Virus record (IMG/VR): IMGVR_UViG_3300023278_002223
Coordinates: 1 to 64,000 of that record
Source: a virus
Direction: 5' to 3' (one strand)
DNA: 64,000 bases
Every line of letters starts with the position of its first letter. Position 1 is the first letter of the stretch. Under the pieces are notes generated by a model that did not search any database, had not been told where the DNA came from, and saw only the letters and a list, made by a program, of their open reading frames with translations. Made by a program: the position numbers and the translations under genes. Below are positions 2 through 32,618 of the stretch, piece after piece.

Positions 2-3000
2 TCAGCATCCCTTAGTGGACTTACAGATACCACCATAACAGCCCCTGCAAGTGGATCAGCACTAAAATATAATGGATCTGCATGGCTCGATGATCCAAAT
101 CTAAAAGAAGAGGAGTCCACTGGACTTCTAACCGGGGGAGTCCTATCAACCGGAGCTGGAGCTGCTGAGTATTCAATCACAGACGGAACAGGCAAGGTTA
201 CAGACAATACAGGAGTAGAGACATATGTGTCATGGACTGGATTAACAAATAACACTCCGGCAAACATCGCTACAAACCTAATCACATTCGTAGGAATTAG
301 CTCATCTGGCACCCTAGTGGAGTCAACCACCAAATGGACTCCTCAGCAGAGAAGATCTCTTATTCCACTAGGAGTTGCAGTCCACGTAAACCTAACAGCA
401 GTTGACGTGGTCAACAATGAACAGCAGACATCATACAATATTGGAAGTCAACTTACAGACCTTGCAGAGGCAATTGGCTTCTTCAATGTCGATGGTAACG
501 TTGTCAGCGCAAATGGAGCAAACCTGTCTGTAAACAAGTCCGAGGGAGACATGTTCAAGAACGGGTCAAACTACCACAATGACGCAGACAATCCAAATGT
601 CATCACCCTAGCAGCCCTAAGTGCCGCAACCTTCCAATACAGATTCAGCAATGGAGACAACGGAACAACTGGAACATCTATTGATCCAGACAACTTAGAT
701 GACGGAGCAGGCGGACACACTGCTGTTGGTAACAACAAGTGGTCAATTCAGAGATTCTACTCTTTCACCTCAAACAACCTAAAAGTACAGAAGGGGGTCG
801 CCGAGTACAACTCTTTAGACTCCGCAGTTAACGCAATCGCAACAGAGTCCTACATAACAGAGCCATCCATCGAGGCCAACGGACTCCTAAGGGGTTGGCT
901 GATCGTTGCCAAGGGAGCGACAGACCTATCAGACTCAGCAGAGGCACTATTCCTAGAGGCACCTCAGTTCCCAGGAGGAAGCAGCGCAGGAGGAGCGTCA
1001 ATCACAGACTTGCAGGCAGCGTACGACAACTCCACTGCCGAGCCAGAGATACTAACCAACACAGCAAATGGAGCAGTTGGATTCAGAAGAGGCTCAGCAG
1101 CGGACACAGATCACGTATTCCATGTTCAAAACAACGCAGGGACCACCAACTTTTCAGTTGACGGAAATGGCCTAGTCCTAGCAAGCGGAACAATTAACGG
1201 AAGAGATGTTGCTACAGACGGAACAAAGCTTGACACAATCGAGACAAGTGCGACTGCAGATCAGTCAGACGCTGAGATAAAGACCGCCTACGAGAACAAT
1301 GCGAACACCAATGCGCTTACAGACGCATACGTCACAATCCTAGGAAACACCTCAAACACAAACTCAGGAGATGAGTCCCCAGCCTCCATTACTACCTCTG
1401 GAATTGTTGAGATTGCGACACTTGCAGAAGTTGACGCAGGGACTGACGGGCTAAGGGTCGTAACACCATCCGGGCTGGCCACCATCCAGACAGACGTTGA
1501 CGCCAACACTGCGAAATCAACCAACGTTAGCACAGACTTGGGGTACAGTACGGCAGCCGCTACTGGAACAGTAACTAGCTCCGATGGAACCAATGCCACC
1601 TTGCCAGCTGCCACCACCTCTCTTGCCGGACTCCAGACTGGAGCAGACAAGACTAAGCTGGACGGAATTGAGACAAGCGCGACTGCAGACCAGTCAGACG
1701 CCGAGATAAGAGCCGCAGTAGAAGCGGCTACAGACTCAAATGTCTTCACAGACGCAGACCACACCAAGCTTAACGCCATTGAGGCCTTGGCAGATGTAAC
1801 AGATGAAGCGAATGTTGATGCAGCGGGAGGATCGATCATCACATCTCAGTCTGGAACCCCATCTACAACCCCATCAAAGGTTGGCCTAATTAACATTGAC
1901 ACAACCGGAAACCTAGTATACGTATCCACTGGAACCTCAAGCAGTGGGGATTGGGCCCTACTAAACGACGGAAGTCTTCCAGCTCTAGACCTTGGAGATC
2001 TTGGAGATGTTTCTACCACAGGGCAGGCAGACGGAAAGGGGCTATTTCACAACGGGACATCCTTCGTAATGGAGTCAGCCACACTTGGAGACCAAGTAAC
2101 TGGAGCTGCCACAAACCTGTCCGATGTTAACACAGCAGGGGCTACCGAGACAGACGTCTTGGCCCTCTCTGGATCAACATGGGTTCCATCCGGAGTGTCC
2201 GGAGGATCAGCCTCACTTAGTGGGTTGACCGATACATCGCTAACATCCCCAGCAAGCGGGGCATATCTAAAGTATGACGGATCCAATTGGATTAATGAAA
2301 ACAGTGGAACCTCCGTTGATGTTTCAATTCAAGAGATTTCAGCTGGAGCTTCTGAGATTGTCATCGACATAAGTGACACAACTGTAGACATGCACGACAT
2401 CGCCATTTCTCACTTGGCTCCTGGTACAGATAACGTTTCTCTACGAATCTACCTGTCTGATGACGGTGGGTCTACCTACAAGTCAACCTCCTATCACTAC
2501 ACAAGGTCATCTGCATCCACCGGATCAGAAGCATACGGAGGAAGCGCAGCAGGAACCTACATAGCTCCATATAACGTTAATGCGGGTAACGCGACTGGGG
2601 AATCCAACCACATTAATATTAGGGTAACAAGGCCAACAAACCCAAATAGCCTTGACTCCTACACCATCTTTGATTATAGAGGCGGTTATGTTAGAACTTC
2701 TCATACTCCTATCCACGAAGAAGGCATCTTCTACTGGGCTGGAGGAACTGGAGGAGTAGACACAATTAAGCTTTCATTCAGTGCAGGAACCATCGACACC
2801 GGGGTTGTCGTACACAGGAAGGTCTCCGAGGGGATTGGAGGAGGATCAGCAGGATCACTAAGCGGGCTAACCGACACCTCTTTATCTGCCCCAGCATCGG
2901 GCGAGATTCTTGAATACGATGGAACAGACTGGGTCAACGCAACAAACGCAGGCGGTGGTGGGCCAACTTACTCTTCAGACGTTATCTCCTCTGGAGATGT

Positions 3001-3475: not shown

Positions 3476-3483
3476 TAATTAAT

Positions 3484-3493
3484 TTCGTATAAT
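3484..3493 (+). promoter_or_regulatory. Putative phage late promoter TTCGTATAAT
   Basis: One of 8 intergenic + strand copies of (T/A)(T/A)CGTATA(A/T)(T/A) upstream of genes. Confidence 0.7.
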
Positions 3494-3546
3494 ACAATGG
3501 ACCAGATGGATCCACAGCACAATAACCATATTTAGAAAGTGTCAAA

Positions 3547-4458
3547 ATGGCAGATTTCAATCTATTTCAGTTCGGGCCTCAGGGTAGAGACATTTATGTC
3601 GATGCGAGTGGTGCGCTACAAATCACAACAGACCCAAGCGCAAGCGGATTCATCATGGGATACGGAGAGGCCGGATACGCCCTTCTCGTAGACGCTAGCG
3701 GAAGAATCCTAGCCACCGACAACAACGCTGTCTCTGGTATAAACGATCTAACAGACGTAAACACAGCAGGATCCACTGAGACTGACGTTCTAGCACTATC
3801 TGGATCAACCTGGGTTCCATCAGGAGTGTCCGCAGGATCAGCCTCACTAAGCGGATTAACCGACACCTCTCTATCTGCGCCAGCCTCAGGAGAGATTCTT
3901 GAATACAATGGAACAAACTGGGTCAACGCAACAAACGCAGGGGGCGGTGGGCCAACCTACAGCTCAACAACAATAGCCTCAGGAGCCTCAGAGTACATCT
4001 GGGACGTAAGCTCTGGAGCAAAGCAGTACGAGATCATTATCGACAACTGTCTGCCAGATACAGACGGCAAAAGATTCAAAGTCTCCATAAGTGATGATGG
4101 TGGAAGCACTTACGAGTCTGGAGCAACTTCTTACTTCTTCCAGAGATCAGAGGACGAGGGAACCGACGCCTACTTCAGTGACGGAACAACCACACAGCCT
4201 CAGCTATTCAACTCCGGAATCGGAAATGCCGCCGGAGAAGGTGGCAAGATCATGATGCAGGTGGGGGATTGTGCTAGCACTGATGTTGTCTCAGTAGTTT
4301 CCTATCAGGGAGCGTGGATCAACCTCATCGGCGGACCATTGACCAACAGAGGGATGTTCGGTCTAGGCGGCACCGCAGCTGCCATCACTCATATCAAGGT
4401 TTTCTGGGATTCAGGAAACTTCCGAAAGGGAGACGTCCTCCTTATGGAAAGATCATAA
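3547..4458 (+). CDS. Short fibre protein; N-terminus shared with 12782 gene, C-terminal domain paralogous to the end of the 2..3475 gene
   Basis: MADFNLFQFGP..IYVDASGALQI anchor, LTD/YNG-W repeats, C-terminal ...THIKVFWDSGNF domain. Confidence 0.7.
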   Translation: MADFNLFQFGPQGRDIYVDASGALQITTDPSASGFIMGYGEAGYALLVDASGRILATDNNAVSGINDLTDVNTAGSTETDVLALSGSTWVPSGVSAGSASLSGLTDTSLSAPASGEILEYNGTNWVNATNAGGGGPTYSSTTIASGASEYIWDVSSGAKQYEIIIDNCLPDTDGKRFKVSISDDGGSTYESGATSYFFQRSEDEGTDAYFSDGTTTQPQLFNSGIGNAAGEGGKIMMQVGDCASTDVVSVVSYQGAWINLIGGPLTNRGMFGLGGTAAAITHIKVFWDSGNFRKGDVLLMERS

Positions 4459-4507
4459 GGCAAGACCAGATAAGTACTTGGCTATATCTGAAATAAAATA
4501 AAAGATT

Positions 4508-4541: not shown

Positions 4542-4584
4542 AATATGAGCATTAAACTTATGACATATGAGGAGATCGAAGAGT

Positions 4585-6360: not shown

Positions 6361-6390
6361 TTCTACCAATTTTTAATAAGGAGTTTTACA

Positions 6391-6929: not shown

Positions 6930-7889
6930 ATGGAAAACCGCGAGCTACTAAGAGCAACCGCTGGAAGCGATGCTCAGTCCCTAGAGAACCGCAAGGCTCT
7001 CGCACAAGTCCTAGCAAACGTGTGGAAGCAAGGCGTCCTAGAGCCAACTCTCATCGGCGACATCTTCTCCCGCATTGACGTTGAGGCTGGCATTGACGCC
7101 AAGTTCCCTCTCGACTTCTACACCCCAGCTGATTCTGATGGTACTGAGTTCGACGCATTCGTAATCGCCCGTGAGGGTGCCGTTCCTAACCGCGTCATCG
7201 ATGGTGACGAAGTACACGTACCTACATACAAGATTGCTAATAGCATCTCTTGGAACCTCGATTACGCCCGTGACGCCCGTTGGGATGTCATTGCACGCGC
7301 AATCGAAGTCTTCACTAACGGTTTCACCCGTAAGATGAACGACGATGGTCTACACACCCTCCTCGCAGCAGGCGGAACTACTGAGACCGTTGACACAGCA
7401 GCATCTGCTGGTTCATTCACCAAGAAGCTCGTTACCGATCTTCAGGTCGCAATGAAGCGCCAAGCTGGTGGTCGTGACGCACGTTTGACCAACCTACTCG
7501 TTTCACCAGAGGCAATCGCTGACATTCGTCTCTTCGCAGAGACCCAAGTTGATGACGGAACTCTCCGTAGCCTCATCAACAGCGATGGCAACCCAGCTCC
7601 AAGCCTATTCGGCGTAGAGCTCAATGAGCTAATCGACCTCGGTGCTTCCCAAGCACTCACCACCTACTGGACTGGTACCATCGGTGGAACACTCGATAAC
7701 TCAGACGAAGAGATCGTCATCGGCCTCGACCTCAGTACTCGTGACAGCTTTGTCATGCCAGTACGCGAGGACATGCAGATGTTCGACGACGCCACCCTCC
7801 ACCGTTCCGGTAAAGCCGGAGTCTACGGATGGATGGAGCTCGGCTTCGCTTGTCTCGACACCCGTCGCGTCATCACAGGTGCATTCTAA
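6930..7889 (+). CDS. Major capsid protein (HK97-like fold inferred)
   Basis: 319 aa, position after scaffold and decoration genes, high-expression codon style, followed by a terminator; C-terminal GVYGWMELGFACLD motif. Confidence 0.8.
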   Translation: MENRELLRATAGSDAQSLENRKALAQVLANVWKQGVLEPTLIGDIFSRIDVEAGIDAKFPLDFYTPADSDGTEFDAFVIAREGAVPNRVIDGDEVHVPTYKIANSISWNLDYARDARWDVIARAIEVFTNGFTRKMNDDGLHTLLAAGGTTETVDTAASAGSFTKKLVTDLQVAMKRQAGGRDARLTNLLVSPEAIADIRLFAETQVDDGTLRSLINSDGNPAPSLFGVELNELIDLGASQALTTYWTGTIGGTLDNSDEEIVIGLDLSTRDSFVMPVREDMQMFDDATLHRSGKAGVYGWMELGFACLDTRRVITGAF

Positions 7890-7993: not shown

Positions 7994-8392
7994 ATGTCAG
8001 CTAATTTTGATCCAGCACAAACAACAGTGCCAGTAGACTTCGGTCTATTCGTAAATGGAGTCCCAGTTAGCGGGCAGTCACCAACGGTTGCTTTTTACGA
8101 CATATCAGGGAAGATCTTAGATCACTCCACAAGCACGTTCGTTACCCAGGGAACTGAGGTATCCGGAACCGCCAGCTTGACAGAAATCGGCTCAGGACTA
8201 GGGGTTTATCAGTATGACTTTACATGGGGTGGCTTTGGCCTGTCAGCTCCATTCACACTAACTTGCTACTTTGACGTTACTATCCCATCGGGATATAGCG
8301 TTGATTTTACTTCAGCGGAAACACATAATGCCGTTGAACAGTTGAATATTACAAAAGACGAAAACAGGCCCTTCAGCCTAACACTTGAATAG
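7994..8392 (+). CDS. Virion protein, probable Ig-like beta-sandwich
   Basis: 132 aa beta-rich ORF in structural operon. Confidence 0.5.
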   Translation: MSANFDPAQTTVPVDFGLFVNGVPVSGQSPTVAFYDISGKILDHSTSTFVTQGTEVSGTASLTEIGSGLGVYQYDFTWGGFGLSAPFTLTCYFDVTIPSGYSVDFTSAETHNAVEQLNITKDENRPFSLTLE

Positions 8393-23732: not shown

Positions 23733-23736
23733 GAAG

Positions 23737-24279
23737 ATGGCAGTACCAGTAATCGAGTTCAACGTGTTCACCGTTGACAACTCAACTCCAGCCACATCAG
23801 GTAGGCACCTTGAGACTGCTCTTAATTGGAGTCAAAAGGCTGACGCTACAACAAGTGGATACTTGGACATGGGGACCGTGAACAACACCTCAGCCAAGGT
23901 CTCAACAAGCACAGTTGCGGTCGTTCCTTTCTGCTCTAATTTAAACGGAGCAACAACTGTCAGCGATATGAAGTTTTGGATGCCAACACAGACAGCCATC
24001 ACAACTGGAACCGTTACATTTAACGAGCAAATCCAGACAGCTTGGCAGTCAGGCATAGCCCTAACAGATGCGAGTGGAAGCTATGCAAGCTCATCCCTGC
24101 CATCTGTTCAAAACGTAAACAGGCAAGATGGAACTACAACAGTCACTGGGGCCAACTCAGACTCACAGGCAATGGAGTTCATCTACGTTAGCACAACCGT
24201 AGACACAGACGTTCCAGCCGGAGAATATGGGGTTGCACCAGGGGCAATGAAGTTTAGACTAACTTTCGACTTCAGCTAG
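23737..24279 (+). CDS. Tail tip protein, paralog 1 of 3
   Basis: Shares SG(x)RH[LI][ED], [FM]W, W..[GS][IL].L motifs with the next two genes. Confidence 0.55.
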   Translation: MAVPVIEFNVFTVDNSTPATSGRHLETALNWSQKADATTSGYLDMGTVNNTSAKVSTSTVAVVPFCSNLNGATTVSDMKFWMPTQTAITTGTVTFNEQIQTAWQSGIALTDASGSYASSSLPSVQNVNRQDGTTTVTGANSDSQAMEFIYVSTTVDTDVPAGEYGVAPGAMKFRLTFDFS

Positions 24280-24296: not shown

Positions 24297-24851
24297 ATGG
24301 CAACAATAATCGTAAAAGAGTGGGATGTGACAGGTACCGACCCTAGTGGTTCAAGGCACCTCGAAAGTCACGCATCCTTCGTATCAGTGGTTGCCTCTGG
24401 GACTAGCCCAACTGGAACCATTGACCTCGGGAGCTTGGCCATTACAGACGGAAACGACATTGGGGCAACAAAGTGCTTCACAGTCCAGTTCTCAGGCTTC
24501 GCTGACGCCAATGAGACCGTGGACTCCTGCGAGTTTTGGGCCAGCGGTTCCGACCTATCAGGAACATCATCAAAGATCGTTTACTCAGGGACGGGCTCTT
24601 GGACACAGTCACTGTCCTTAGCCGAGGACGGGAACGAGATAGTTCCTACTACATCTGGGACAGCGTCAGGGGTGCTAAGAAACGATGGAGGCTTAACCTT
24701 CTTCGCAACTACAGATGCTCACACGTCTCAGTACAACTACATTGCACTTCAGGCATCGGGAGACATGCCAGTGGGAGCCTATGGGGGGACCACAGGGCTA
24801 GACCTTAAGTTTAATTATTCAGTAAATACTGCGAATACGAACAGAGACTAA
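24297..24851 (+). CDS. Tail tip protein, paralog 2 of 3
   Basis: DPSGSRHLE motif and shared downstream motifs. Confidence 0.55.
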   Translation: MATIIVKEWDVTGTDPSGSRHLESHASFVSVVASGTSPTGTIDLGSLAITDGNDIGATKCFTVQFSGFADANETVDSCEFWASGSDLSGTSSKIVYSGTGSWTQSLSLAEDGNEIVPTTSGTASGVLRNDGGLTFFATTDAHTSQYNYIALQASGDMPVGAYGGTTGLDLKFNYSVNTANTNRD

Positions 24852-24852
24852 T

Positions 24853-25503
24853 ATGGCAACCTCAGGAACTATAACAATAGCTACTCCGCCAGTGTTGGTC
24901 TGGTCTTGGGATACATCCAAGGTGGACCCTTCCGGGTATCGCCACATAGACTCCGGGGTCTACAAGCCAGGAGCAAAGTCTGACCTAATAGGGGGCTTTG
25001 ACTCCAATCAGTCAAGCGGGGTGGCACTAAACGTGTTGACCCAGACAGACCTAACTCCGTCAGCCACAGTTGTTGGTGGGACCAAGGCTCTAACAGTAAG
25101 CTTGGGATTGCCAGCAGACTCGCACTTCTCTTCAGCAAACGCTGGAGCCGTTGGCAGTAGTCTTAGAATCTACAACATAAAGATGTGGCTAAACGACAAG
25201 TCAGACCTAACAGCATCAGGAGTGACCCCGACTCTGTACTACAGGTCAGACTCAAGCTGGACCAAGGGGATAGCCCTAACAAGCGCATCTTCTGGAGTAG
25301 CAGCCTTCCCAGAGACCGAGGGATCAGGAATCTCCCTAGGCGTTGTTAATTCAGGCAACGCAGACCTAGAGATTACAAACTACGTGTACACATTCCTAGA
25401 GCTACCTTCTGGAACATACGAACAAGGGGTGTTGGGTGGCCTCGGGGGTGGATACGAGATAAGAGTTTCCTACGACTTCACCGCAGAGGGGGAGTTGCTG
25501 TGA
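24853..25503 (+). CDS. Tail tip protein, paralog 3 of 3
   Basis: DPSGYRHID motif and shared downstream motifs. Confidence 0.55.
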   Translation: MATSGTITIATPPVLVWSWDTSKVDPSGYRHIDSGVYKPGAKSDLIGGFDSNQSSGVALNVLTQTDLTPSATVVGGTKALTVSLGLPADSHFSSANAGAVGSSLRIYNIKMWLNDKSDLTASGVTPTLYYRSDSSWTKGIALTSASSGVAAFPETEGSGISLGVVNSGNADLEITNYVYTFLELPSGTYEQGVLGGLGGGYEIRVSYDFTAEGELL

Positions 25504-25901
25504 GCCTCTATAGCTTGGATAAAACTGGTGAGACACTTGTAGTCAAAGTCCCAACAGTCGGTGGAGAGATGTCCATTGACACAGGCTTAGACTGTGACTC
25601 ATACATAACCTTCACGGCAACCACAGACATGCAGCAGGCTGTAGGCAAAGTGGCTGATGGGGGGATAAGGACTGTTTGGGACGGATCCCTAAAAGAGATA
25701 ACAAACGCTAGATATATTGGCGAAATCTCAGTTGGAGATAGGGTCTGGTTGACCGAACACCTAACACTGTCTGGCAAGATGGAGCTTGTTGCCAGCAAGA
25801 GGCAACCAGCATGTGGAGACATAAACTTCATAAACGTTATTTCTTCTAAGACAAGAAAAAAAAGAGTAAAGATAGACATAATAACAGGAGAGGTTGGATA
25901 A
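25500..25901 (+). CDS. Hypothetical protein
   Basis: GTGA overlap with upstream stop; 133 aa. Confidence 0.55.
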   Translation: MSLYSLDKTGETLVVKVPTVGGEMSIDTGLDCDSYITFTATTDMQQAVGKVADGGIRTVWDGSLKEITNARYIGEISVGDRVWLTEHLTLSGKMELVASKRQPACGDINFINVISSKTRKKRVKIDIITGEVG

Positions 25902-25902
25902 A

Positions 25903-26733
25903 ATGGCAATAACAGTAAAGACATCAACTGTCAACATGGAAACAGTTGTGTACGCCAACTCTCAGAACATGCCAAGCGGAACGCAGAACACTCACCTTGA
26001 GCTCAGCTTCCAGCCAACCAGCTCTGGAGATTACGACCAACAGCTAGTGGTAAACAAGACAACCCAGGCCGCATTTGGTAGCAAGCTAACAGTCGCCCAG
26101 TCCATATCTGCCACCAACGGAACCATAGACTCAGTAAAGGTCGGGTCAGATGTGTTCACAGAGGCTAGCGGAGTGGTCTATGCCTCAGCATCCGGATCAG
26201 TTGTTGTAGTGTCAGGGAGTGTGCCAAGCGGCTCAGACATCCACACTGCATCAATCAACTTCAACGAGGGACCAAGGACAGTCTCTGGAGGGTTGACAGT
26301 GTCAGACGCGGGTCTTTTCTCTGCCACCCACACCTACTCTTACCCAGGGATCTACCACATCCTCACAAGGGTTCAGGACTCTGAGGGCGCTGTTGACATG
26401 GATTCATTCCGTCTCAACTTGGCCTCTGACCTAACCGGAAGTGACTTGGGGAACTTGACAGTAACAGCAACCCCAGAAGGGGGAGACACCAGCAGCACCT
26501 CCTCTTTGTCTATAAGCTGTACAACAACTGGAGCGTCTGGCTTATCCATTAGTTCAGTAGAGGATGACGATTTGTCCTGGAACTTCGGCAACCACGAAAC
26601 AAGCAACAAGACAGCCCCATCAACAAGATATTCTGAGCCTGGGACATTTATCCCATCGGCCAGCTTCTTGTACCCAAGCCCATCTGGCAGTCTATATCTT
26701 ACAGATATTATCGACCTAGGGGCGAACACTTAA
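25903..26733 (+). CDS. PKD/Ig-domain virion protein
   Basis: HTYSYPGIY and WNFGN..S...PS.RYSEPGTF PKD signatures. Confidence 0.65.
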   Translation: MAITVKTSTVNMETVVYANSQNMPSGTQNTHLELSFQPTSSGDYDQQLVVNKTTQAAFGSKLTVAQSISATNGTIDSVKVGSDVFTEASGVVYASASGSVVVVSGSVPSGSDIHTASINFNEGPRTVSGGLTVSDAGLFSATHTYSYPGIYHILTRVQDSEGAVDMDSFRLNLASDLTGSDLGNLTVTATPEGGDTSSTSSLSISCTTTGASGLSISSVEDDDLSWNFGNHETSNKTAPSTRYSEPGTFIPSASFLYPSPSGSLYLTDIIDLGANT

Positions 26734-26785: not shown

Positions 26786-29700
26786 ATGGTAAGCGGACAC
26801 ATCAATGTAAGTGGAATAAACACCACATATCAGCCAGAGCTAGTAAGCTCGCCGGACGGACTCTTTGGAGCCTCTGGCGCGTTTCTTTCTGCCGTTAATG
26901 CCACATTTGGTTTCGGATCATCTCCCCACACATTCAGCCTGTCTTACGCACCAAGATCCTTTGGGCACGAGACCCTCCCAACAATCGGCACAGCCGTAGA
27001 CTTCTCAATTGACAACTTCCTCGTCAAGGGAAGCGTAACCCACGCAGACTACTCCAAAGACTCAAAGGGGAACCTTCTAAACGTCGTGATTCAAGACGAC
27101 AGGGTTGATCTAGACTCATTCTTCCTAGACACAGTTGGTCTGTTCGGAAGAAACGACACACCTTCTGACGATACAGTGGATGTCTACAATTGGTACAGCA
27201 AGACAAGCGTCAGCATAGCAACGTCCGGGAGATCATCCCAAGTAAAAGAGCTTGAGAGCATCAAGAACAATGGTGCAACATACAGGCAGATCTATGATGC
27301 AACAGAGTACTATGAAAACACAATCGGGTCAGTCACTGGGCTTCTTTCCTCACTACCAGCTCCAGACGTAGTAGAGAGCCAGCTTCCAGGAAACGTAGAC
27401 GGATACAGGTGGAAGTTCGAGGCAGAGGGCTTCTTGTCCGCTATGGTCAGGATCCTGTCAGATGTCAGCTATGACTGCTATTGGGATATGGCTGATGCCA
27501 AACTTTCAGTTGTCAACAGGAAGTACAGTGTAACAGTCACAAGAGATGACATCCCTTACGCAGGAGACACCTCCGAAACATTGCACCTAAAGTATGGAAA
27601 CGACGAGTCTGACAAGCCAAACAAGGTTAGAGTCTTCGGTCCAAACATGGAGGGGATCGTTGGAAGTGGGCGACTAATCCCAACCTCCGGAGCCTTCGCC
27701 GCATCCTATGACATGGGAATTACAGTTGGAGCACCTTCGTTCGAGCCAGGGTGGAGAAACGTAAACATCAAGTACTTCGGTCCAGATGGAAACCTCGCCA
27801 CTGACATCCCAACAGATGCAGAGCTTAGCGCAGCACTCAAATCAATCGAGTACTGGGCTCATGAGAAAGACCTAGAGAACAGAATCAGCAGCTCGGGCTT
27901 CGTTCCTGCCTCTGGATCTAACGTTGGACAGAACAGCCCAACATCCTACCTATCAGAGATGACCAGCAGATACAACTCTTCAAAGAGTTGGGTCGTAGCG
28001 TGGTACAACAAGGTTAAGACCTTTGCAGACTCCCACTATGGTAAGACATACACCCTAAAAGAGACCGATCCCCTATATGGTTTCATTGATGACTTTGAGG
28101 TCGTTGGTGAAGCATGGAGCAACCTTGAGAATCAGGCCAGCGGCCTATTCGAGGATGGATACCAGATCGACGGCACTTACTCTATGCTAGCCCCTTTCTA
28201 CAACGCCGCAACAAACAAGCTAAAGGCGTACTGCGTAATGGACACCACTACAAAGTGGGGGATCACAGGAGAGGGAGTTCCAACTAAGTTCGAGAGCTGG
28301 AATGAGGACGAGCTAAACCAATTTGTACCAATCAAGGTTCAGATGTGGAAATCTTCCAAGACAAGGTTTGACTCTCCAGCGTTTGAGTGGGACAGCTCAG
28401 AGAAGGGAATTGCTATAACATTCCCCAACTTCTGTTTCGACCCAACAACAGCAAGAAACACAGCGCTACTAACAGCCTCTTCAGGAATCACAACAGCCAA
28501 TAGTGGATTCCTAACTGGAGACTGGGGCGACGATTTCGTCGACCCACTACTAAACCCAGTCCCATACGAAGAGATCAACCCTGCTTCAGGGCAGAGCGTT
28601 GCTCTTCCTGTTAGAGTGAGCAGAAGATATGGATACGCATACCCTTCAGTCTGGACAAGCGGGACAGGGAGCAAGCTGGAGGTTGTTGTAGAAGACAAGT
28701 TCTCCCCATGGAACTACGAGCCAAGAGGGACAGACACCTCTGTCGAAAGGCTAACAGCAGACGTCAACGCCTTCATGAGCTCTCAGAAGATTGACGCCAC
28801 AGCGTCTACTCACGCGGAAGTGACCAAGATCGGTCTACCTGGGGTTAGCTTTGACGACTTCTCAGACCAGACTCTTCAGTCAAGTGGCTATGGGTTGATT
28901 TCAAACGGGATAACCTCCATCAACGTTGGTAGGGGATCCAGCGACTACTGGAAAACAAAGTACTCAGTAAAAGCCCACTTCCCACAGCTAGTAAAAGCAA
29001 AGCCAACCTTTACAAGACTAGACGAAGACTTTTCTTTCGTAATCAAGAAGATTGAGACAAGGATTACAGACCTAGAGCTCGATCTCGACATCCCAGAAGT
29101 GTTCGCCCCTATTGACGACACAAGGATAACAAGAATTGGGGTTGGCACAGCGGAAGAGAAAAGATCTATCCCTGTGACTATCACTACCGTTTACGATAGA
29201 ACATCTGGAGACCCTTACTACCTCTCAACAGACTCCAGAGGAAAGAGCTGGCCAAGAAACCTGGACCTAAACGCAGGAAGCCAGGCATCCCAAAGAGCAA
29301 GAGGCGCAGACGGGCTATTTGACGTTAACATGTCAGCAGTGTACCACTACGAGAGGCTAGAGGATGGAACATTCCAGCACTGGTACACAGGTGGTGTAGA
29401 CTTGGTTAACGCCAAAGTCATGACAGTAACGTCAGCAATAAAGACCGCTGGAGGCAGCAGCGTTGTTGACCTTCAGACACTAGCCCCAGTCGGGGGTGTT
29501 GCGATTGACATAACAAACGTTCCTCTTATCGACCAAGCAAACACCGACAGTGTCACAAGTGGAGCAAAGGTATCAGTCTCCTCCCCAATGAGCGACACCA
29601 ACATTAGGAACTACGACTTTACGCCTTCAGCTGGCCTCTCTGAGCTCTATGTGGTAAATGCCGCAGCAGGAGGAGGAGGGTCAGGAACCACCAACTTCGT

Positions 29701-29974
29701 AGAAGTGACAACGGCTCCAACATCTGGAGCTGGTGTATCTGGGATCGTTAGAACTTTCGCCGTAGGAAACATCTCGGCAATAACATACGATGACTCTGCC
29801 TCAGGAACAAAGGTCTCATTCGTTGGTATCGATCCAAGGATTGTAGCATCTGGAGACTTCGGAATTATCTCAATCCAGAGCGACACTGAGATCCAGGGAA
29901 GCGGATCAGTGGCCATCGACCATGTCCTTTGTCACATCGTCAAGCCTACCTTCATAAACTATGGATTGATTTAA
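26786..29974 (+). CDS. Tail hub/baseplate-like protein
   Basis: 1062 aa; N-terminal hub-like organisation (FGSSPHTFSL, VVIQDDR, YDCYWD, YGNDESD.PNKVRVFG). Confidence 0.55.
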   Translation: MVSGHINVSGINTTYQPELVSSPDGLFGASGAFLSAVNATFGFGSSPHTFSLSYAPRSFGHETLPTIGTAVDFSIDNFLVKGSVTHADYSKDSKGNLLNVVIQDDRVDLDSFFLDTVGLFGRNDTPSDDTVDVYNWYSKTSVSIATSGRSSQVKELESIKNNGATYRQIYDATEYYENTIGSVTGLLSSLPAPDVVESQLPGNVDGYRWKFEAEGFLSAMVRILSDVSYDCYWDMADAKLSVVNRKYSVTVTRDDIPYAGDTSETLHLKYGNDESDKPNKVRVFGPNMEGIVGSGRLIPTSGAFAASYDMGITVGAPSFEPGWRNVNIKYFGPDGNLATDIPTDAELSAALKSIEYWAHEKDLENRISSSGFVPASGSNVGQNSPTSYLSEMTSRYNSSKSWVVAWYNKVKTFADSHYGKTYTLKETDPLYGFIDDFEVVGEAWSNLENQASGLFEDGYQIDGTYSMLAPFYNAATNKLKAYCVMDTTTKWGITGEGVPTKFESWNEDELNQFVPIKVQMWKSSKTRFDSPAFEWDSSEKGIAITFPNFCFDPTTARNTALLTASSGITTANSGFLTGDWGDDFVDPLLNPVPYEEINPASGQSVALPVRVSRRYGYAYPSVWTSGTGSKLEVVVEDKFSPWNYEPRGTDTSVERLTADVNAFMSSQKIDATASTHAEVTKIGLPGVSFDDFSDQTLQSSGYGLISNGITSINVGRGSSDYWKTKYSVKAHFPQLVKAKPTFTRLDEDFSFVIKKIETRITDLELDLDIPEVFAPIDDTRITRIGVGTAEEKRSIPVTITTVYDRTSGDPYYLSTDSRGKSWPRNLDLNAGSQASQRARGADGLFDVNMSAVYHYERLEDGTFQHWYTGGVDLVNAKVMTVTSAIKTAGGSSVVDLQTLAPVGGVAIDITNVPLIDQANTDSVTSGAKVSVSSPMSDTNIRNYDFTPSAGLSELYVVNAAAGGGGSGTTNFVEVTTAPTSGAGVSGIVRTFAVGNISAITYDDSASGTKVSFVGIDPRIVASGDFGIISIQSDTEIQGSGSVAIDHVLCHIVKPTFINYGLI

Positions 29975-29975
29975 A

Positions 29976-32618
29976 ATGGCTAGCAGCGGCTACGTCTATC
30001 CTTCCAGTATGTGGTCTGGCGGCATGACGCTCCCAGTCAGTGGTGACATAGGTTACGTCCAACCTTTCGATACCGCGTCCGGAAACCTGGCCAACGGGAC
30101 CGGGATATATCCACTTGCAGTGCCAAGGATTGACGCTGCAGCCACCACGGGTATCACTGGAAACTCCCACATCCTACCATATAGCGCTCAACTATTCTAC
30201 ACTGCTCTTGAGTCAATCAAGCTTGAGTACACCGCAAGAGGTGCTACCGAGCCAGACTTTCACGTCTTCTACGATTATGCCAAGACAGACACAGAGATCC
30301 TAGCAAGCCACAGCGGCCTGCTAGAGATGCCTCTGCAGAACTTCCCACACCTAGTTGAAGAAGCCCAAGAGGCAATCAGCGGACTCGTATGCATGTCCGG
30401 CTGGAGCGACAGCATGGGCGACTACATGAACAGGGTGTTCGACTATAGGATTCTCCTTGCAGACGTTCCTTCTGGAAACAGACTCCAAGACGGAGTTACA
30501 TACAGGAACATAGCAACAGGGCAAGATGAAACTATCAACTGTCTGACAAGAGCAAGATCTGGTCTCTTCCCATTGGACTTCAATGCCATTAAAAACCTCA
30601 GCTCAACCTGGGGAGTGATGGCGAGCGGGACAAGGCTATACACCGCTGGGGGAGAGTTCTCTGGAGTAGGTCAGCCTATTGGAGACAGGACAACAAGAGA
30701 GCCTGAATTCCAGCAGTTCTCGTTCATGGGTCACTTTGACTGGTTGGCCCAAAGCCTACTCTGGAGACCACCAGTAGTAGAGAGCTTCAAGAATTCCACA
30801 GACACAAACACCCATAGTCTAATTACTCACGAGAGAGACAGATGGGAGTCCGCCTCTGGGTTCTACTACGATGACCCAGACGACGTGTGGTGGCATGCAA
30901 GCGGAACCTCCCCATCGGGAGTACCAAGCAAGTCTTCCAATTACGACACCGCCGCCCTTGTCTCTGCCCCAGCCCCTTCCTCACTAATCTATGGTGACTT
31001 GGGGTACTGGAGAGTTAATAAGCAGAGGTCAACCAAGTGTACGCCAATCGGCACATATGTTACAGGAGAGTCAAGCGGAACAACCTGGGAACTTGACACC
31101 CCAGACCTTCCCAGTCTGTATGAGCAGGTTGCTCTCAATAATACCGGATCTGGCCTCGATGTAAACACAAAGGACTACTACAAGAGTGACAACTTTAGTG
31201 GATACGTTTACAATTCTGGAACCGGAAGCGGTGGGTATAACGGAGACTACGTAGACATTAACACCAAGATATACTCCGAAAGACCTCAAGACTTCTCAAC
31301 ATACAATCAGGTCGGATATGTAGACCCAGACCCTTCCGCTAGCGGAGCGTACCTTGGTCAGCCTGGACAAGCGACCACTGCCGGTGCATTTGAAGCTGGC
31401 CCAGAGATCTTTGAGACATCGGTGTCTTGGATCTCCCCTGGTGCTAGTGGCAGATGGGAAATCAGCAATTCTGTAGTAGAAGCTGGTTCTGGAATCTCCT
31501 ACCCCCTAGGCAGTGGCTCTGCAATTGTTGTAGACATGAATATCGATAGTCACAATGCTGCCAGTGGAGAATGGACATCCCATACAGGTAGAAACGACTT
31601 TGAGGGTGTACACGTTTGCTTGCAGACAAACAAGCACATTCCTCACATAATTGAAAAAGACTCCAACTCAAGGACAGCAGACCTAATCTGGACTATGGAA
31701 AAGCAGATGGTGGTCTTTGATGACTTCATTCTGTTCGATTATGTTGAAGGAGCTCAAAACGAACAGTACCAACTGTTGACGTATGACACCAACAGCATAT
31801 CCAATAGCTACAACTCAGACCTGAATGCCGCATTCGGTTCCGATGGAGTTCTGGCCTCAGGGTATAGCTTCATAAGAAAAGCCCCAACACTCATGGGGCT
31901 ATATTTCTCAAGTACGGGGCTTCAAGAGTCCCAAACCCTAGTGTCCGATGGAACGTTTTATAACGGAGGAGAAGAAGTTCTTGAGACTGTATTCAGTGGA
32001 TCTTGGAGTATGTTCGGAGACCTGCCAACAAATAGGTCAAACAGATATGGATCTCTGGGAGGAATCAACTGGAGACAGGGAGGCGGAACGCTAATCTCTG
32101 ACTCAGACCTAACAGCTGACACTGAGTGGGACTGGGGGCTTGAGGAGAGCATAGGAGCCACCTCATACCCATCAGGAGCCGTTGCCAGCATATACAGCCT
32201 AAGCGACACAACACCAACATCCGGAACAGCCTCTGGAACCCTGTACACCGTAGACCTGTGGGACAAGTACATAGCAGACATGGACAGGCTTGCAACCCAC
32301 TGGCCATCAGGAGCAGTCGGCTCTTATGATGTTGATCCAGACCTCCTTCCATCAGGAAACGATTGGGAGAGATTTGAAGATAGTACAGATTCAGGCGTGT
32401 CCGGGTGGCACAACGCCGTAGCCCGCACATCTGGAGTAGCAACAGCCCAATTTGGGCAGCTAGAGGATGACGGCGGAACCACCATTGACGCCTTGAGCTT
32501 CAATCAGCTCATATCCAACGGAGCAAGCACATTCGCTCCATCTGGAGGAGTTGGCTACAACATCAATAGCATCTGGTTGAAATACCCAGTAATATTAGGC
32601 CCAAGTGGTCTAAACTAA
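29976..32618 (+). CDS. Large Ser-Gly-rich virion protein
   Basis: 880 aa, last gene of structural operon; about 36 SG dipeptides by hand count. Confidence 0.55.
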   Translation: MASSGYVYPSSMWSGGMTLPVSGDIGYVQPFDTASGNLANGTGIYPLAVPRIDAAATTGITGNSHILPYSAQLFYTALESIKLEYTARGATEPDFHVFYDYAKTDTEILASHSGLLEMPLQNFPHLVEEAQEAISGLVCMSGWSDSMGDYMNRVFDYRILLADVPSGNRLQDGVTYRNIATGQDETINCLTRARSGLFPLDFNAIKNLSSTWGVMASGTRLYTAGGEFSGVGQPIGDRTTREPEFQQFSFMGHFDWLAQSLLWRPPVVESFKNSTDTNTHSLITHERDRWESASGFYYDDPDDVWWHASGTSPSGVPSKSSNYDTAALVSAPAPSSLIYGDLGYWRVNKQRSTKCTPIGTYVTGESSGTTWELDTPDLPSLYEQVALNNTGSGLDVNTKDYYKSDNFSGYVYNSGTGSGGYNGDYVDINTKIYSERPQDFSTYNQVGYVDPDPSASGAYLGQPGQATTAGAFEAGPEIFETSVSWISPGASGRWEISNSVVEAGSGISYPLGSGSAIVVDMNIDSHNAASGEWTSHTGRNDFEGVHVCLQTNKHIPHIIEKDSNSRTADLIWTMEKQMVVFDDFILFDYVEGAQNEQYQLLTYDTNSISNSYNSDLNAAFGSDGVLASGYSFIRKAPTLMGLYFSSTGLQESQTLVSDGTFYNGGEEVLETVFSGSWSMFGDLPTNRSNRYGSLGGINWRQGGGTLISDSDLTADTEWDWGLEESIGATSYPSGAVASIYSLSDTTPTSGTASGTLYTVDLWDKYIADMDRLATHWPSGAVGSYDVDPDLLPSGNDWERFEDSTDSGVSGWHNAVARTSGVATAQFGQLEDDGGTTIDALSFNQLISNGASTFAPSGGVGYNINSIWLKYPVILGPSGLN

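What the first reader, a model, noticed from the sequence alone, without database searches (positions are those of the whole stretch)
2..32618. Ser-Gly dipeptide enriched across predicted outer virion proteins: candidate glycosylation sequon
Hand counts of SG: about 36 in the 880-aa protein at 29976 (against about 9 GS, so not just composition), 13/303 aa (3547), 10/255 (12782), 9/184 (24297), 9/216 (24853), 9/276 (25903), about 22/1062 (26786) and 8/414 (tail tube). The context is usually [A/P/T/S/V]-S-G. Controls: major capsid about 1/319, the Ser/Gly/Ala-rich internal tape measure about 4/1702, DnaE about 1/1154. Unrelated folds converging on one directional dipeptide, mainly in proteins predicted to be surface-exposed, suggests a modification target. 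Ser-Gly is the established acceptor for proteoglycan O-xylosylation. Inference: the phage glycosyltransferases at 41.2-45 kb O-glycosylate these serines to build a glycan coat on tail and fibres.
Basis: partly seen in the sequence, partly recalled or inferred. Interest (0 to 1): 0.88.

Follow-up and report, generated by a model that had tools for sequence, protein, structure and literature searches.

The report
Ser-Gly excess on phage tail proteins
The outer tail, baseplate and fibre proteins of this uncultured phage carry more than twice as many Ser-Gly pairs as chance allows, a pattern shared by its whole clade along with one conserved sugar-transferase gene, so the serines may be sugar-attachment sites, but no chemistry shows it.

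Summary
Over the 24 plus-strand ORFs at 2-32618, SG occurs 181 times against 98.4 expected, with GS at 105. It is the only outlier among 400 dipeptides. The other 80 ORFs of the 89-kb record show 93 against 100.6. The motif is [P/A]-S-G-hydrophobic and Ser-only; TG is not enriched.

The excess is not special to this phage. All 53 related loci from public viral contigs show it, with a median ratio of 2.02. T4 baseplate and fibre proteins (1.02) and P2 (0.99) do not show it.

NeuB, the Maf-like protein and the CAP59/GT2-like transferase are each absent from 10 of 10 near-complete relatives that keep the excess. The GT4 enzyme at 42866-44998 is present in 10 of 10.

My best reading, at about 45%, is that this clade-wide GT4 O-glycosylates the SG serines and that this lineage adds a nonulosonic-acid elaboration. 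A purely structural loop-to-strand motif is nearly as likely. No relative lacking the GT4 was found.

This scan has noted the same phenomenon on other phage DNA before.

The parts
2..3475 (+). Tail fibre protein, open at the 5' end (1157 aa). SG excess is only weak.
   Evidence: PHROG tail-fibre families, E 3e-22 to 3e-18. SG 19, GS 18, expected 14.5.
3547..4458 (+). Fibre-like protein (303 aa), SG-rich. Its N-terminus is paralogous to the protein at 12782.
   Evidence: SG 13 against 5.0, shuffle z 4.2. PHROG fibre-type repeat hits. Sequence contexts.
6930..7889 (+). Major capsid protein, an internal control without SG excess.
   Evidence: phrog_3922 major head protein. 25% identity to the phage G major head protein. 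SG 1 against 1.4.
7994..8392 (+). 132-aa virion-module protein of unknown role, SG-rich.
   Evidence: SG 5 against 1.4, z 3.4. No PHROG hit.
11441..12685 (+). 414-aa structural protein with mild SG excess.
   Evidence: SG 8 against 4.2, z 2.1. No Pfam or PHROG hit. Homologue in G042 at 37771-39177.
12782..13549 (+). Fibre-like protein (255 aa), SG-rich, with repeats of the type P-A-S-G-E-x-L-E-Y-N-G.
   Evidence: SG 10 against 2.6, z 5.1. PHROG tail-fibre repeat hits. Contexts.
17273..22381 (+). Tape measure protein (1702 aa), an internal tail component depleted in SG.
   Evidence: PHROG tape-measure families. SG 4 against 11.4, z -2.3, GS 14.
22392..24279 (+). Two proteins after the tape measure (446 and 180 aa) with moderate SG excess.
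   Evidence: SG 10 against 5.8 and 4 against 1.3.
24297..25503 (+). Two small baseplate-region proteins (184 and 216 aa), SG-rich.
   Evidence: SG 9 against 2.9 (z 4.1) and 9 against 3.6 (z 3.2). No family hits.
25894..26733 (+). 279-aa protein with a PKD domain, SG-rich.
   Evidence: PF18911 PKD_4, E 1.2e-6. SG 9 against 4.2.
26786..29974 (+). Baseplate hub or central spike (VgrG/gp27-like), 1062 aa, SG-rich.
   Evidence: SG 22 against 10.3. Model pLDDT 78. Foldseek hits to contractile-injection-system baseplate spikes, VgrG1 and Mu gp44. 16 of 22 SG serines lie in coil, and for 15 of 22 a strand starts within 3 residues after the Gly.
29976..32618 (+). 880-aa distal tail protein of unknown fold, with the strongest SG excess.
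   Evidence: SG 36, GS 9, expected 11.3, z 8.4. Its family has 22 representatives. All 16 closer ones (P0002-P0014, P0016-P0018) have positive z (2.5-9.1). Of the 6 scorable distant ones, P0015 gives 0.9 and P0019-P0023 and P0025 give -1.6 to 1.7.
42866..44998 (-). GT4-type GT-B glycosyltransferase (710 aa) with an invariant Cys4 insertion and an extra C-terminal domain. It is the only transferase here that is conserved across the clade.
   Evidence: PF00534, E 1e-9. Model pLDDT 91.5. Best PDB match 3oy2_A, Z 31.9, rmsd 2.7, 373 residues aligned. C345, C348, C363 and C366 are invariant in 52 sequences. Homologues in 40 of 50 related records and 10 of 10 near-complete ones.
42058..42903 (-). 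CAP59/GT2-like transferase (281 aa), specific to this lineage.
   Evidence: PF11735, E 3.7e-16. Homologues in 2 of 50 related records and 0 of 10 near-complete ones.
41241..42065 (-). MptE/Maf-like protein (274 aa), a putative nonulosonic-acid transferase, specific to this lineage.
   Evidence: PF01973 at 26.4 bits, below the 34.6 cut-off. Nearest Atlas clusters are viral MptE-like proteins, score 0.94. Homologues in 2 of 50 related records and 0 of 10 near-complete ones.
38889..41169 (-). Nonulosonic-acid supply genes: NeuB, an RraA-like aldolase and a CMP-sugar cytidylyltransferase.
   Evidence: PF03102 E 3.9e-40, PF03737 E 1.4e-18, PF02348 E 9.8e-14. NeuB is found in 1 of 50 related records.

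Best explanation
The SG serines are proposed acceptor sites for cytoplasmic O-glycosylation of tail-tip, baseplate and fibre proteins by a phage-encoded GT4 enzyme (42866-44998) that the whole uncultured clade conserves.

The enzyme would recognise a short loop that enters a beta-strand, with the local pattern hydrophobic-x-[Pro/Ala]-Ser-Gly-[Val/Ile/Leu/Thr/Tyr]-aromatic. It would use Ser but not Thr.

Lineage-specific enzymes would then build on the first sugar. Elsewhere in the clade these are GT2 and GT9 domains fused to the GT4. In this phage they are the CAP59/GT2-like and MptE/Maf-like transferases, fed by NeuB and a CMP-sugar synthetase, so the glycan would end in a nonulosonic acid.

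What is shown: the SG excess, its motif, its restriction to post-tape-measure and fibre proteins, its presence across the clade, its absence from T4 and P2 tail proteins (lambda shows a milder 1.45-1.54-fold excess), and the co-occurrence with the GT4.

What is inferred: that the GT4 acts on protein, that SG is its site, and that the other enzymes extend the glycan.
For: 1. SG is the single outlier dipeptide in the tail set. It occurs 141 times against 61.6 expected, while DG (1.02), NG (0.74) and TG (0.89) are not enriched. The same holds in the complete relative G042 (102 against 42.2). T4 baseplate and fibre proteins give 66 against 65.4.

2. The extended motif is sharp. [PA]SG occurs 56 times against 7.6, and [PA]SG[VILTYFA] 34 times against 3.3. 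[PA]TG occurs 5 times against 6.5. D, E and K are depleted close to the site (at -1 in the window: D 0.3, E 0.2, K 0.1; K 0.2-0.3 at -3 to +2 in relatives).

3. The excess tracks location. The capsid, portal, tape measure and all non-structural ORFs sit at or below expectation. In G042 the main excess lies in the post-tape-measure block at 47.7-63.4 kb, with weaker ones at 100-110 kb (ratio 1.79, z 4.5) and 30-40 kb (1.71, z 2.6).

4. The fold does not demand it. Hub orthologues carry a mean of 19.2, 8.8 and 20.5 SG in three clades. The two SG-rich clades use mostly different alignment columns: 15 and 23 majority columns, of which 3 are common to both (2 also shared with the third clade), with 11 and 18 private. 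Distant homologues of the 880-aa protein are SG-neutral.

5. The Ser of SG is under stronger constraint than other Ser. It is kept in 0.44 of pairs at 35-50% identity, against 0.17-0.25 for other Ser.

6. The GT4 is present in 40 of 50 related records and 10 of 10 near-complete ones, and in 7 of 9 further MCP-defined relatives. In 8 of those 10 near-complete records it lies on the hub gene's strand, 3.1-13.0 kb beyond the end of the fetched hub locus (5.2-5.5 kb in five); in G004 and G046 it is on the opposite strand. T4, lambda, P2 and phage G have no match.

7. DNA glycosylation through a hydroxymethylase is unlikely for the clade. PF00303 is found in 1 of 10 near-complete relatives and not in this record.

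8. There is precedent. [quoted passage not shown] TibC modifies serine and not threonine, one mapped site being the Ser of N-S-G-G, and it uses a Cys4 'iron finger' for substrate recognition (PMC4358343, passages). The phage GT4 carries an invariant Cys4 insertion.
Against: There is no chemical evidence of any kind.

No relative lacking the GT4 was found, so co-occurrence is clade-wide and not an independent correlation. The 10 of 50 records without a hit are fragments of 11-59% estimated completeness.

The GT4 fold is generic. After a chlorovirus putative GT of unknown acceptor, its best matches act on small molecules, lipids or polysaccharides: BshA, MshA, PimA, WaaG and sucrose-phosphate synthase.

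SG sites are positionally conserved and sit at loop-to-strand entries, which a structural motif would also predict.

Middle-clade phages have the GT4, yet their hub and their homologue of the 880-aa protein are SG-neutral.

When the Ser of SG is replaced, Thr is barely favoured (0.19 against 0.15 for other Ser).

In this window the GT4 lies on the opposite strand, among replication and sugar-metabolism genes.

Lambda, which has no such GT, still shows a 1.45-1.54-fold SG excess, and a block of T4 early genes shows 1.67.
Confidence: 0.45

Rival explanations
1. SG is a structural motif and not a modification site. In this reading [P/A]-S-G-hydrophobic is a favoured way for this clade's beta-rich tail proteins to close a loop and start a strand. 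It spread by common descent and by local convergence. The conserved GT4 serves something else, such as host envelope remodelling, a glycan receptor decoy or a metabolite.
For: In the hub model, 16 of 22 SG serines are in coil and 15 of 22 are followed by a strand within 3 residues. The background is about half.

SG sites are positionally conserved about as well as DG and TG. Both residues are kept in 0.35 of pairs for SG, 0.47 for DG and 0.30 for TG at 35-50% identity.

The replacement spectrum of the SG serine is ordinary.

The closest folds to the GT4 are not known protein glycosyltransferases.

Lambda shows a milder SG excess without the GT.

An earlier scan note on another genome preferred this reading (e1-5952079; unchecked).
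Against: The classical turn formers DG and NG are not enriched, and Thr is excluded.

T4 and P2 baseplate and fibre proteins show no excess.

Orthologous hubs range from SG-neutral to SG-rich, and two SG-rich clades use mostly different columns.

Unrelated proteins are all affected (a PKD-domain protein, the VgrG-like hub, fibre repeats and small proteins without family hits), while the capsid, portal and tape measure are not.
Confidence: 0.33
2. SG marks a different Ser-directed event or partner. Candidates are another covalent modification (phosphorylation, acylation, or dehydration and cross-linking) or recognition by an assembly chaperone or protease. Any link to the glycosyltransferases would then be coincidental.
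For: The data show only that Ser before Gly is selected in exposed tail parts. They do not identify the agent.

The record also encodes a trypsin-like peptidase (60909-61862) and a subtilase (genome 77784-79808).
Against: No kinase, acyltransferase or dehydratase conserved across the clade was seen. This was not searched for systematically.

The GT4 is the one enzyme shown here to be conserved next to the tail module.

SG does not fall at plausible maturation boundaries. It is scattered through the proteins.
Confidence: 0.12
3. The excess is an artefact of composition, repeats or a DNA-level word.
For: Ser and Gly are both abundant in these proteins. The proteins at 3547 and 12782 share paralogous N-termini and repeats.
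Against: Expectations were computed per protein and checked by within-protein shuffles. GS is at expectation, which rules out Ser/Gly-rich patches as the cause.

All six Ser codons and all four Gly codons are used.

The contexts are diverse.

The pattern recurs in 53 of 53 related loci.
Confidence: 0.02

Closest known systems
Virion glycosylation of mycobacteriophages (Che8, Corndog, Myrna; Freeman et al. 2023)
   Same: Phage-encoded glycosyltransferases put glycans on structural virion proteins in the infected cell. The glycans are reported to shield the particle.
   Different: There the glycans sit at the C-termini of the capsid and tail-tube subunits. Here the candidate sites are dispersed [P/A]-S-G motifs in tail-tip, baseplate and fibre proteins, and the capsid has none. 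That system has mass-spectrometric proof and this one has none. I know that paper only through a passage in PMC12619734; the paper itself is not held.
Bacterial autotransporter heptosyltransferases (Aah/AIDA-I, TibC/TibA)
   Same: These are cytoplasmic GT-B enzymes that decorate many serines of a beta-rich surface protein. [quoted passage not shown] One mapped TibA site is the Ser of N-S-G-G. A Cys4 finger inserted in the catalytic domain takes part in substrate recognition (PMC3835316 and PMC4358343, passages). The phage GT4 has an invariant Cys4 insertion. Some family members are fused to a GT9 heptosyltransferase-type domain, PF01075.
   Different: The phage enzyme is GT4-like by Pfam and by fold, not GT9-like. 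No BAHT chain appears among the 50 best structural matches. The donor sugar is unknown and no oligomeric state is known. The substrates are virion proteins, not autotransporters.
Maf flagellin nonulosonic-acid glycosyltransferases
   Same: This phage has NeuB, a CMP-sugar synthetase and a small MptE/Maf_flag10-like protein. Maf enzymes put nonulosonic acids directly on surface Ser/Thr flanked by apolar residues, and have no sequon (PMC11339370, passages).
   Different: The phage protein has 274 aa and scores below the Pfam cut-off (26.4 against 34.6 bits). Maf accepts Thr as well. The Maf-like gene and NeuB are absent from 10 of 10 near-complete relatives that keep the SG excess. At most they cap a glycan in this lineage.
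Chlorovirus-encoded glycosylation machinery (structure 3oy2, putative GT of PBCV NY2A)
   Same: It is the best structural match of the phage GT4 (Z 31.9, rmsd 2.7, 373 residues). It is a virus-encoded GT4-type enzyme. That chloroviruses glycosylate their capsid protein with their own enzymes is recalled here and comes from no call.
   Different: Identity is 16%. The PDB title calls it only 'putative', and its acceptor is not given in any output I saw. Chlorovirus capsid glycans are N-linked (recalled).
Proteoglycan O-xylosylation at Ser-Gly (eukaryotic xylosyltransferases)
   Same: A Ser-specific acceptor followed by Gly.
   Different: That sequon is flanked by acidic residues (recalled). Here D, E and K are depleted around SG (at -1 in the window: D 0.3, E 0.2, K 0.1). 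None of the three transferases matched a xylosyltransferase family in Pfam.

Membership tests
GT4 retaining GT-B glycosyltransferases (protein at 42866-44998) | Glycos_transf_1 C-terminal domain with an E-x7-E-type motif | tested here: met
   PF00534 E 1.1e-9 and PF13692 E 4.1e-6. The consensus 'SIAEGDGMPxxEAKACGVPV' is conserved in 52 sequences. Calling it E-x7-E is my recalled label.
GT4 retaining GT-B glycosyltransferases (protein at 42866-44998) | Two-Rossmann-lobe GT-B fold | tested here: met
   Model pLDDT 91.5, pTM 0.88. 973 of 1000 re-aligned chains reach Z >= 8. The top 50 are all GT-B glycosyltransferases (mostly GT4-type by my recall) at Z 23.9-31.9 over residues about 59-512.
Bacterial autotransporter heptosyltransferases (BAHT: TibC, Aah) | GT9-like heptosyltransferase catalytic domain | tested here: inconclusive
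   Pfam gives GT1/GT4 families for this protein, not PF01075. No BAHT chain is among the 50 rows shown, and a family that is not listed is not excluded. PF01075 domains occur fused to homologues in other phages.
Bacterial autotransporter heptosyltransferases (BAHT: TibC, Aah) | Four-cysteine metal finger inserted in the catalytic domain | tested here: inconclusive
   C345, C348, C363 and C366 are invariant in 52 sequences and lie in a hairpin region of the C-terminal lobe (DSSP). TibC uses C339, C342, C358 and C370 (PMC4358343). Homology of the two insertions and metal binding were not tested.
Bacterial autotransporter heptosyltransferases (BAHT: TibC, Aah) | Ser-only acceptors at the start of a loop between strands | tested here: inconclusive
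   The candidate motif is Ser-only (TG 0.89). 15 of 22 SG in the hub model precede a strand by 3 residues or fewer. That these serines are acceptors is not shown.
Maf flagellin glycosyltransferases (protein at 41241-42065) | PF01973 (MptE-like/Maf_flag10) domain above the curated cut-off, flanked by N- and C-terminal domains (about 600 aa in all) | tested here: not met
   26.4 bits against a cut-off of 34.6, over profile positions 13-64 only. The protein has 274 aa. Atlas neighbours are small viral MptE-like proteins. The 600-aa figure is recalled.
Mycobacteriophage-type virion glycosylation | Phage-encoded glycosyltransferases present | tested here: met
   Three transferase-like genes lie at 41241-44998.
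Mycobacteriophage-type virion glycosylation | Glycans on C-terminal tails of the capsid and tail-tube subunits | tested here: not met
   The capsid protein has 1 SG in 319 aa. Candidate sites are dispersed through tail-tip proteins. The feature is as quoted in PMC12619734.
Mycobacteriophage-type virion glycosylation | Glycan demonstrated on virion proteins | not testable with these tools
   The phage is uncultured and no proteomic data were available.
Proteoglycan xylosylation sequon | Acidic residues flanking Ser-Gly | tested here: not met
   In the window, at -1: D 0.3, E 0.2, K 0.1. In 10 relatives: D 0.2 at -1 and 0.3 at +3, E 0.4 at -3 and +3. The defining feature itself is recalled.

The most novel reading that the evidence does not exclude
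[Pro/Ala]-Ser-Gly-hydrophobic is a true, Ser-specific O-glycosylation sequon. It is read by a clade-wide, Cys4-finger-bearing GT4 enzyme of a large group of uncultured phages of 90-180 kb. The enzyme coats the tail tip, baseplate and fibres with a glycan whose outer sugars differ by lineage. Here that would be a nonulosonic acid, which would make this a sialic-acid-like coated phage tail. Sites are gained and lost like the glycan-shield sequons of animal viruses.
Probability: 0.4. Interest if true: 0.85.

Novelty: new variant of a known kind. Interest (0 to 1): 0.62.

Why it matters
Virion glycosylation by phage enzymes has, as far as I could see, been shown only for mycobacteriophages. There it involves C-terminal tails and no sequon.

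A short, countable Ser-Gly motif tied to one conserved transferase would be new in two ways. It would be the first sequence rule for predicting glycosylated phage proteins from sequence alone. It would also make an abundant uncultured clade testable without cultivation: express the GT4 together with a 184-aa SG-rich protein and weigh the product.

A glycan coat on receptor-binding parts would bear on host recognition, on stability in water and on evasion of host or grazer defences. A compact Ser-specific sequon would also be useful for glyco-engineering.

If instead the motif is structural, it is a clade-specific design rule for beta-rich tail proteins. It would then be a warning against reading dipeptide biases as modification sites.

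Tried and rejected
A DNA-level word was rejected. SG uses all six Ser codons and all four Gly codons. There is only a modest shift towards T-ending Ser codons (p 0.002), and Gly codons do not differ (p 0.19).

Ser/Gly-rich patches were rejected, because GS is at expectation.

A general property of tail proteins was rejected. T4 gives 1.02 and P2 0.99. Lambda gives 1.45-1.54 and the strands of S-EIVl give 1.00-1.49, so these are milder.

Dependence on the nonulosonic-acid pathway, the Maf-like protein or the CAP59/GT2-like protein was rejected.

DNA glycosylation through a thymidylate-synthase-type hydroxymethylase is unlikely. Other DNA-modification routes were not examined.

The search for a negative control, meaning a relative without the GT4, failed by every route tried:
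- The distant SG-poor homologues of the 880-aa protein turned out to lie in GT4-bearing phages G004 and G005.
- MCP-based relatives all belong to GT4-bearing lineages, or are fragments.
- The sister lineage G052 has the GT4 and a 1.86-fold excess (54 against 29.0) in its post-tape-measure block.
- The genome-contig scans gave nothing with A1. With A4 they gave one 155-kb contig filed under an Omnitrophota MAG; I did not search that contig for the GT4, and a 1023-aa GT4 homologue is listed with a longest contig of the same length.
- Phage G, the only cultured phage with a detectable capsid relative, has neither the hub nor the GT4. Its tail genes were not located.

Searches of the 'phages' collection gave nothing for the 880-aa protein or the Maf-like protein, 3 weak hits for NeuB, and 1 weak hit for the GT4.

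Sequence searches of the PDB with the Maf-like protein and the GT4 were uninformative.

No paper linking Ser-Gly to phage virion glycosylation was found. Searches were. One search listed 12 papers, none relevant by title or abstract. Supplementary files were not consulted.

Solvent exposure of the SG serines could not be computed, because the fold tool returns only secondary structure and confidence.


Full report
**What the window is.** The window is the first 64 kb of a single 89,248-base virus record, which CheckV rates as about 49% complete. The plus-strand arm from 2 to 32618 is a head-and-tail module. It contains the following:
- a tail fibre that runs off the 5' end (PHROG tail-fibre families);
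- a scaffold protein and a major capsid protein (phrog_673, phrog_3922). The capsid is 25% identical to that of Bacillus phage G, its only cultured relative;
- a 1702-aa tape measure;
- a block of baseplate and distal tail genes.

The 1062-aa protein in that block is a VgrG/gp27-like hub or spike by predicted fold. The model has pLDDT 78, and it gives Foldseek hits to contractile-injection-system spikes, VgrG1 and Mu gp44.

The minus-strand arm holds EF-G, a histidine phosphatase, NeuB, an RraA-like aldolase, a CMP-sugar cytidylyltransferase, an MptE/Maf-like protein, a CAP59/GT2-like transferase, a 710-aa GT4 protein, SSB, DnaE, a mannose-6-phosphate-isomerase-type cupin, an NAD-dependent sugar epimerase and replication genes.

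**The observation.** The 880-aa protein has 36 SG and 9 GS, against 11.3 expected from its own composition. In 2000 within-protein shuffles none reached 36 (z 8.4).

Six further proteins have shuffle z of 3.2 to 5.1. They are those at 3547, 7994, 12782, 24297, 24853 and 26786. Four more, at 11441, 22392, 23737 and 25894, have z of 2.0 to 2.7.

Pooled over the 24 plus-strand ORFs, SG is 181 against 98.4 and GS is 105. Among all dipeptides with an expectation above 5, SG stands alone at z about 8.3; the next is PS at 3.7. In the other 80 ORFs of the record SG is 93 against 100.6.

The capsid (1 against 1.4), the 597-aa protein at 4567 (0 against 2.1) and DnaE (1 against 4.4) are not enriched. 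The tape measure is depleted (4 against 11.4).

In the subset made of the post-tape-measure proteins and the three fibre-like proteins (4962 aa), SG is 141 against 61.7 (z 11.8). There, 27% of all glycines are preceded by Ser, against 7% in the rest of the genome.

**It is a protein-level, Ser-specific, directional motif.** SG is encoded by all six Ser codons (AGY 38%, TCN 62%) and all four Gly codons. TG (47 against 52.7), GS (67 against 61.7), DG (1.02) and NG (0.74) are not enriched.

The context is sharper than the dipeptide:
- At -1, Pro is 4.2-fold and Ala 2.5-fold enriched.
- At -3, Val, Ile and Pro are favoured.
- Directly after the Gly, Val, Ile, Leu, Thr and Tyr are favoured, followed by aromatics.
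- K, D and E are depleted near the site, and R too in relatives.

The same logo comes from 1043 sites in ten relatives. [PA]SG occurs 56 times against 7.6 (z 17), and [PA]SG[VILTYFA] 34 times against 3.3. [PA]TG occurs 5 times against 6.5.

**It belongs to a whole clade.** The hub protein has a family of 38 cluster representatives at 27-100% identity. A pattern scan of IMG/VR with their alignment returned 53 loci of about 8-23 kb, from contigs of up to 183 kb. Some of these contigs are near-duplicates of each other.

With one blind pipeline (ORFs of 80 aa or more on the hub's strand), every one of the 53 loci has more SG than expected. The ratio runs from 1.26 to 2.57 with a median of 2.02, and 50 of 53 reach 1.7 or more. 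The median z is 7.1. GS has a median of 1.08.

In the complete 147,927-base relative G042 the main excess lies in the post-tape-measure block at 47.7-63.4 kb (102 against 42.2), with weaker ones at 100-110 kb (ratio 1.79, z 4.5) and 30-40 kb (1.71, z 2.6). Its tape measure is depleted (6 against 10.8). The remaining 10-kb bins run from 0.55 to 1.47.

A sister lineage reached through the capsid protein (G052, 177 kb, complete) has a divergent hub. It still shows 54 against 29.0 in its post-tape-measure block.

**Controls outside the clade.**
- Twenty T4 baseplate, tail and fibre proteins give SG 71, GS 71 and expected 69.8.
- With the blind pipeline, P2 gives 0.99 and the first 50 kb of phage G 0.99.
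- T4 late regions give 1.11 and 0.92.
- S-EIVl's strands give 1.00 to 1.49.
- Lambda gives 1.54.
- One T4 early-gene strand gives 1.67.

So a mild SG surplus occurs elsewhere. A two- to three-fold, single-dipeptide outlier confined to tail-tip proteins does not.

**The fold does not require it, but selection keeps it.** In the hub alignment the three clades carry a mean of 19.2, 8.8 and 20.5 SG per sequence. Columns with SG in at least half of a clade number 15, 6 and 23. Only 2 are shared by all three, while 11 are private to the window's clade and 18 to the far clade. Alignment error in loops at 27-30% identity is a caveat here.

Middle-clade phages have an SG-neutral hub and an SG-neutral homologue of the 880-aa protein. 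Their neighbouring baseplate proteins are nevertheless SG-rich.

The Ser of SG is also kept far more often than other Ser. It is kept in 0.44 of pairs at 35-50% identity, against 0.17-0.25. For comparison, the D of DG is kept in 0.61 and the T of TG in 0.36. When the Ser is replaced, the spectrum is ordinary (T 0.19 against 0.15).

In the hub model, 16 of 22 SG serines are in coil, against 49% of other Ser. For 15 of 22, a strand starts within three residues after the Gly, against about half in the background. Exposure could not be measured.

**Which enzyme travels with it.** I searched 50 of the 53 related records; L011, L022 and L058 were left out because of a size limit. Results for all records and for the 10 that are at least 90% complete were:

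| Query | All records | Near-complete records |
|---|---|---|
| NeuB | 1 of 50 | 0 of 10 |
| Maf-like protein | 2 of 50 | 0 of 10 |
| CAP59/GT2-like protein | 2 of 50 | 0 of 10 |
| GT4 protein | 40 of 50 | 10 of 10 |

The GT4 matches have E-values of 1e-24 to 1e-194 and cover query residues about 60-518. The ten records without a GT4 hit are fragments of 11-59% estimated completeness.

In 8 of the 10 near-complete records the GT4 lies on the same strand as the hub, 3.1-13.0 kb beyond the end of the fetched hub locus (5.2-5.5 kb in five). In G004 and G046 it is on the opposite strand (coordinates). Seven of nine further capsid-defined relatives also have it, including 2 of 2 near-complete ones. 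T4, lambda, P2 and phage G have no match, and S-EIVl has a distant one.

So the SG excess does not depend on the nonulosonic-acid genes. It co-occurs with the GT4 everywhere I could look. This is clade-wide co-occurrence without a negative control, not an independent correlation.

The window's own sublineage has the extra transferases. It also has Ser-richer tail proteins and 25-27 SG per 1000 aa, against a median of 14.5 elsewhere. That is a single lineage, so the point is anecdotal.

**What the GT4 is.** With 52 homologues the model is confident (pLDDT 91.5, pTM 0.88). Residues about 59-512 form a GT-B fold. The best match is 3oy2_A, a putative glycosyltransferase of chlorovirus NY2A (Z 31.9, rmsd 2.7, 373 residues, 16% identity). 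It is followed by BshA, MshA, sucrose-phosphate synthase, HepE, PimA, PglA, WaaG and TarM at Z 27-31. The fold therefore does not name the acceptor.

The family has an invariant C-x2-C...C-x2-C set (C345, C348, C363, C366) inserted in the C-terminal lobe. It has more than 400 members at E of 0.001 or better. Many are on contigs of 100-180 kb. Some are fused to GT2 and GT9-type domains, and some are interrupted by intein or homing-endonuclease domains.

A thymidylate-synthase-type hydroxymethylase, which would point to sugar on DNA bases, is present in only 1 of 10 near-complete relatives and absent from this record.

Passages of PMC4358343 state that TibC modifies serines and not threonines. 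One mapped site is the Ser of N-S-G-G. Four cysteines form an iron finger needed for assembly and substrate recognition.

Passages of PMC11339370 state that no sequon is known for Maf enzymes and that their sites are flanked by small apolar residues.

Phage virion glycosylation itself is known from mycobacteriophages, at the C-termini of the capsid and tail tube. I saw this only as cited in PMC12619734.

The present case works most like the autotransporter system but is not a member of it: the enzyme is GT4-like. It also differs from the mycobacteriophage case in targets and in having a countable motif. The proteoglycan analogy fails on the flanking residues.

I found no paper describing a Ser-Gly bias in phage tail proteins.

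**Earlier notes of this scan.** Word look-ups returned many notes on other genomes describing the same SG or [S/T]-G excess on tail proteins of uncultured aquatic phages, with the same two competing readings. They are unchecked AI notes and I do not count them as support. One gave me the identifier PMC4358343. Another reports a sister phage that lacks both the transferase module and the excess, which is the test I could not reproduce here.

**Verdict.** The conserved GT4 is the candidate that fits, not the Maf-like, GT2-like or NeuB genes, which can at most be lineage-specific elaboration.

I put O-glycosylation at [P/A]-S-G at about 45%. A structural loop-to-strand motif with an unrelated GT4 gets about 33%, another Ser-directed process about 12%, and an artefact about 2%.

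Noticed in passing
window 42866-44998 (-): The GT4 family has an invariant C-x2-C...C-x2-C set (C345, C348, C363, C366) inserted in the C-terminal lobe. This protein also has an extra alpha/beta domain at about 520-705 that only the closest relatives share. Some homologues in other phages carry intein or LAGLIDADG/Hint domains, or are fused to GT2 and GT9 domains (about 1200 aa).
   Followed up: partly
window 17273-22381 (+); G042 42419-47743: The tape measure protein is depleted in SG (4 against 11.4 here; 6 against 10.8 in G042), while GS is not (14 in both). This is the opposite of the neighbouring baseplate proteins.
   Followed up: no
whole record (G000): The 89,248-base record is rated only 49% complete by CheckV. 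Near-complete relatives are 148-183 kb, so genes 'absent' from this phage may simply lie off the contig.
   Followed up: no
L011-L013 against L014-L063: The window's sublineage has markedly Ser-richer tail-module proteins (10.7-12.2% Ser, 25-27 SG per 1000 aa) than the rest of the clade (6.2-8.5% Ser, median 14.5 SG per 1000 aa). It is the only sublineage with the Maf-like and CAP59-like transferases.
   Followed up: partly
window 3547-4458 and 12782-13549 (+): These two fibre-like proteins share a nearly identical N-terminal 50 residues and carry repeats of the type L-S-D-T-x-I-x-x-P-A-S-G-E-x-L-E-Y-N-G-x-x-W-V-N. One lies before the head genes and one after the 414-aa protein.
   Followed up: no
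window 50098-50700 (-), 59686-60573 (-): There are further sugar-nucleotide genes away from the transferase cluster: a mannose-6-phosphate-isomerase-type cupin with an N-terminal DUF2061 membrane segment, and an NAD-dependent epimerase/dehydratase.
   Followed up: no
window 60909-61862 (-); genome 77784-79808 (-) and 75691-76575 (-): The replication arm encodes a trypsin-like peptidase, a 674-aa subtilase and a second PKD-domain protein. Their roles are unknown.
   Followed up: no
L066 (T4 125-169 kb), minus strand: T4 early genes on this strand show an SG ratio of 1.67 (51 against 30.5, z 3.7), while T4 baseplate and fibre proteins show none. This is unexplained, and it is a reminder that mild SG surpluses occur without any link to virions.
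   Followed up: no
L083 (JAJDCA010000037.1, 154,790 bases): A contig filed under a Candidatus Omnitrophota MAG carries a 41%-identical hub. Its length equals the longest contig listed for a 1023-aa GT4 homologue (P0094); I did not confirm that gene lies on it. It is probably a phage of this clade binned with a bacterium.
   Followed up: no
window 35373-37448 (-), 34635-35342 (-): A full-length EF-G with all five domains lies next to a histidine-phosphatase-family gene, between the tail module and the sugar cluster.
   Followed up: no
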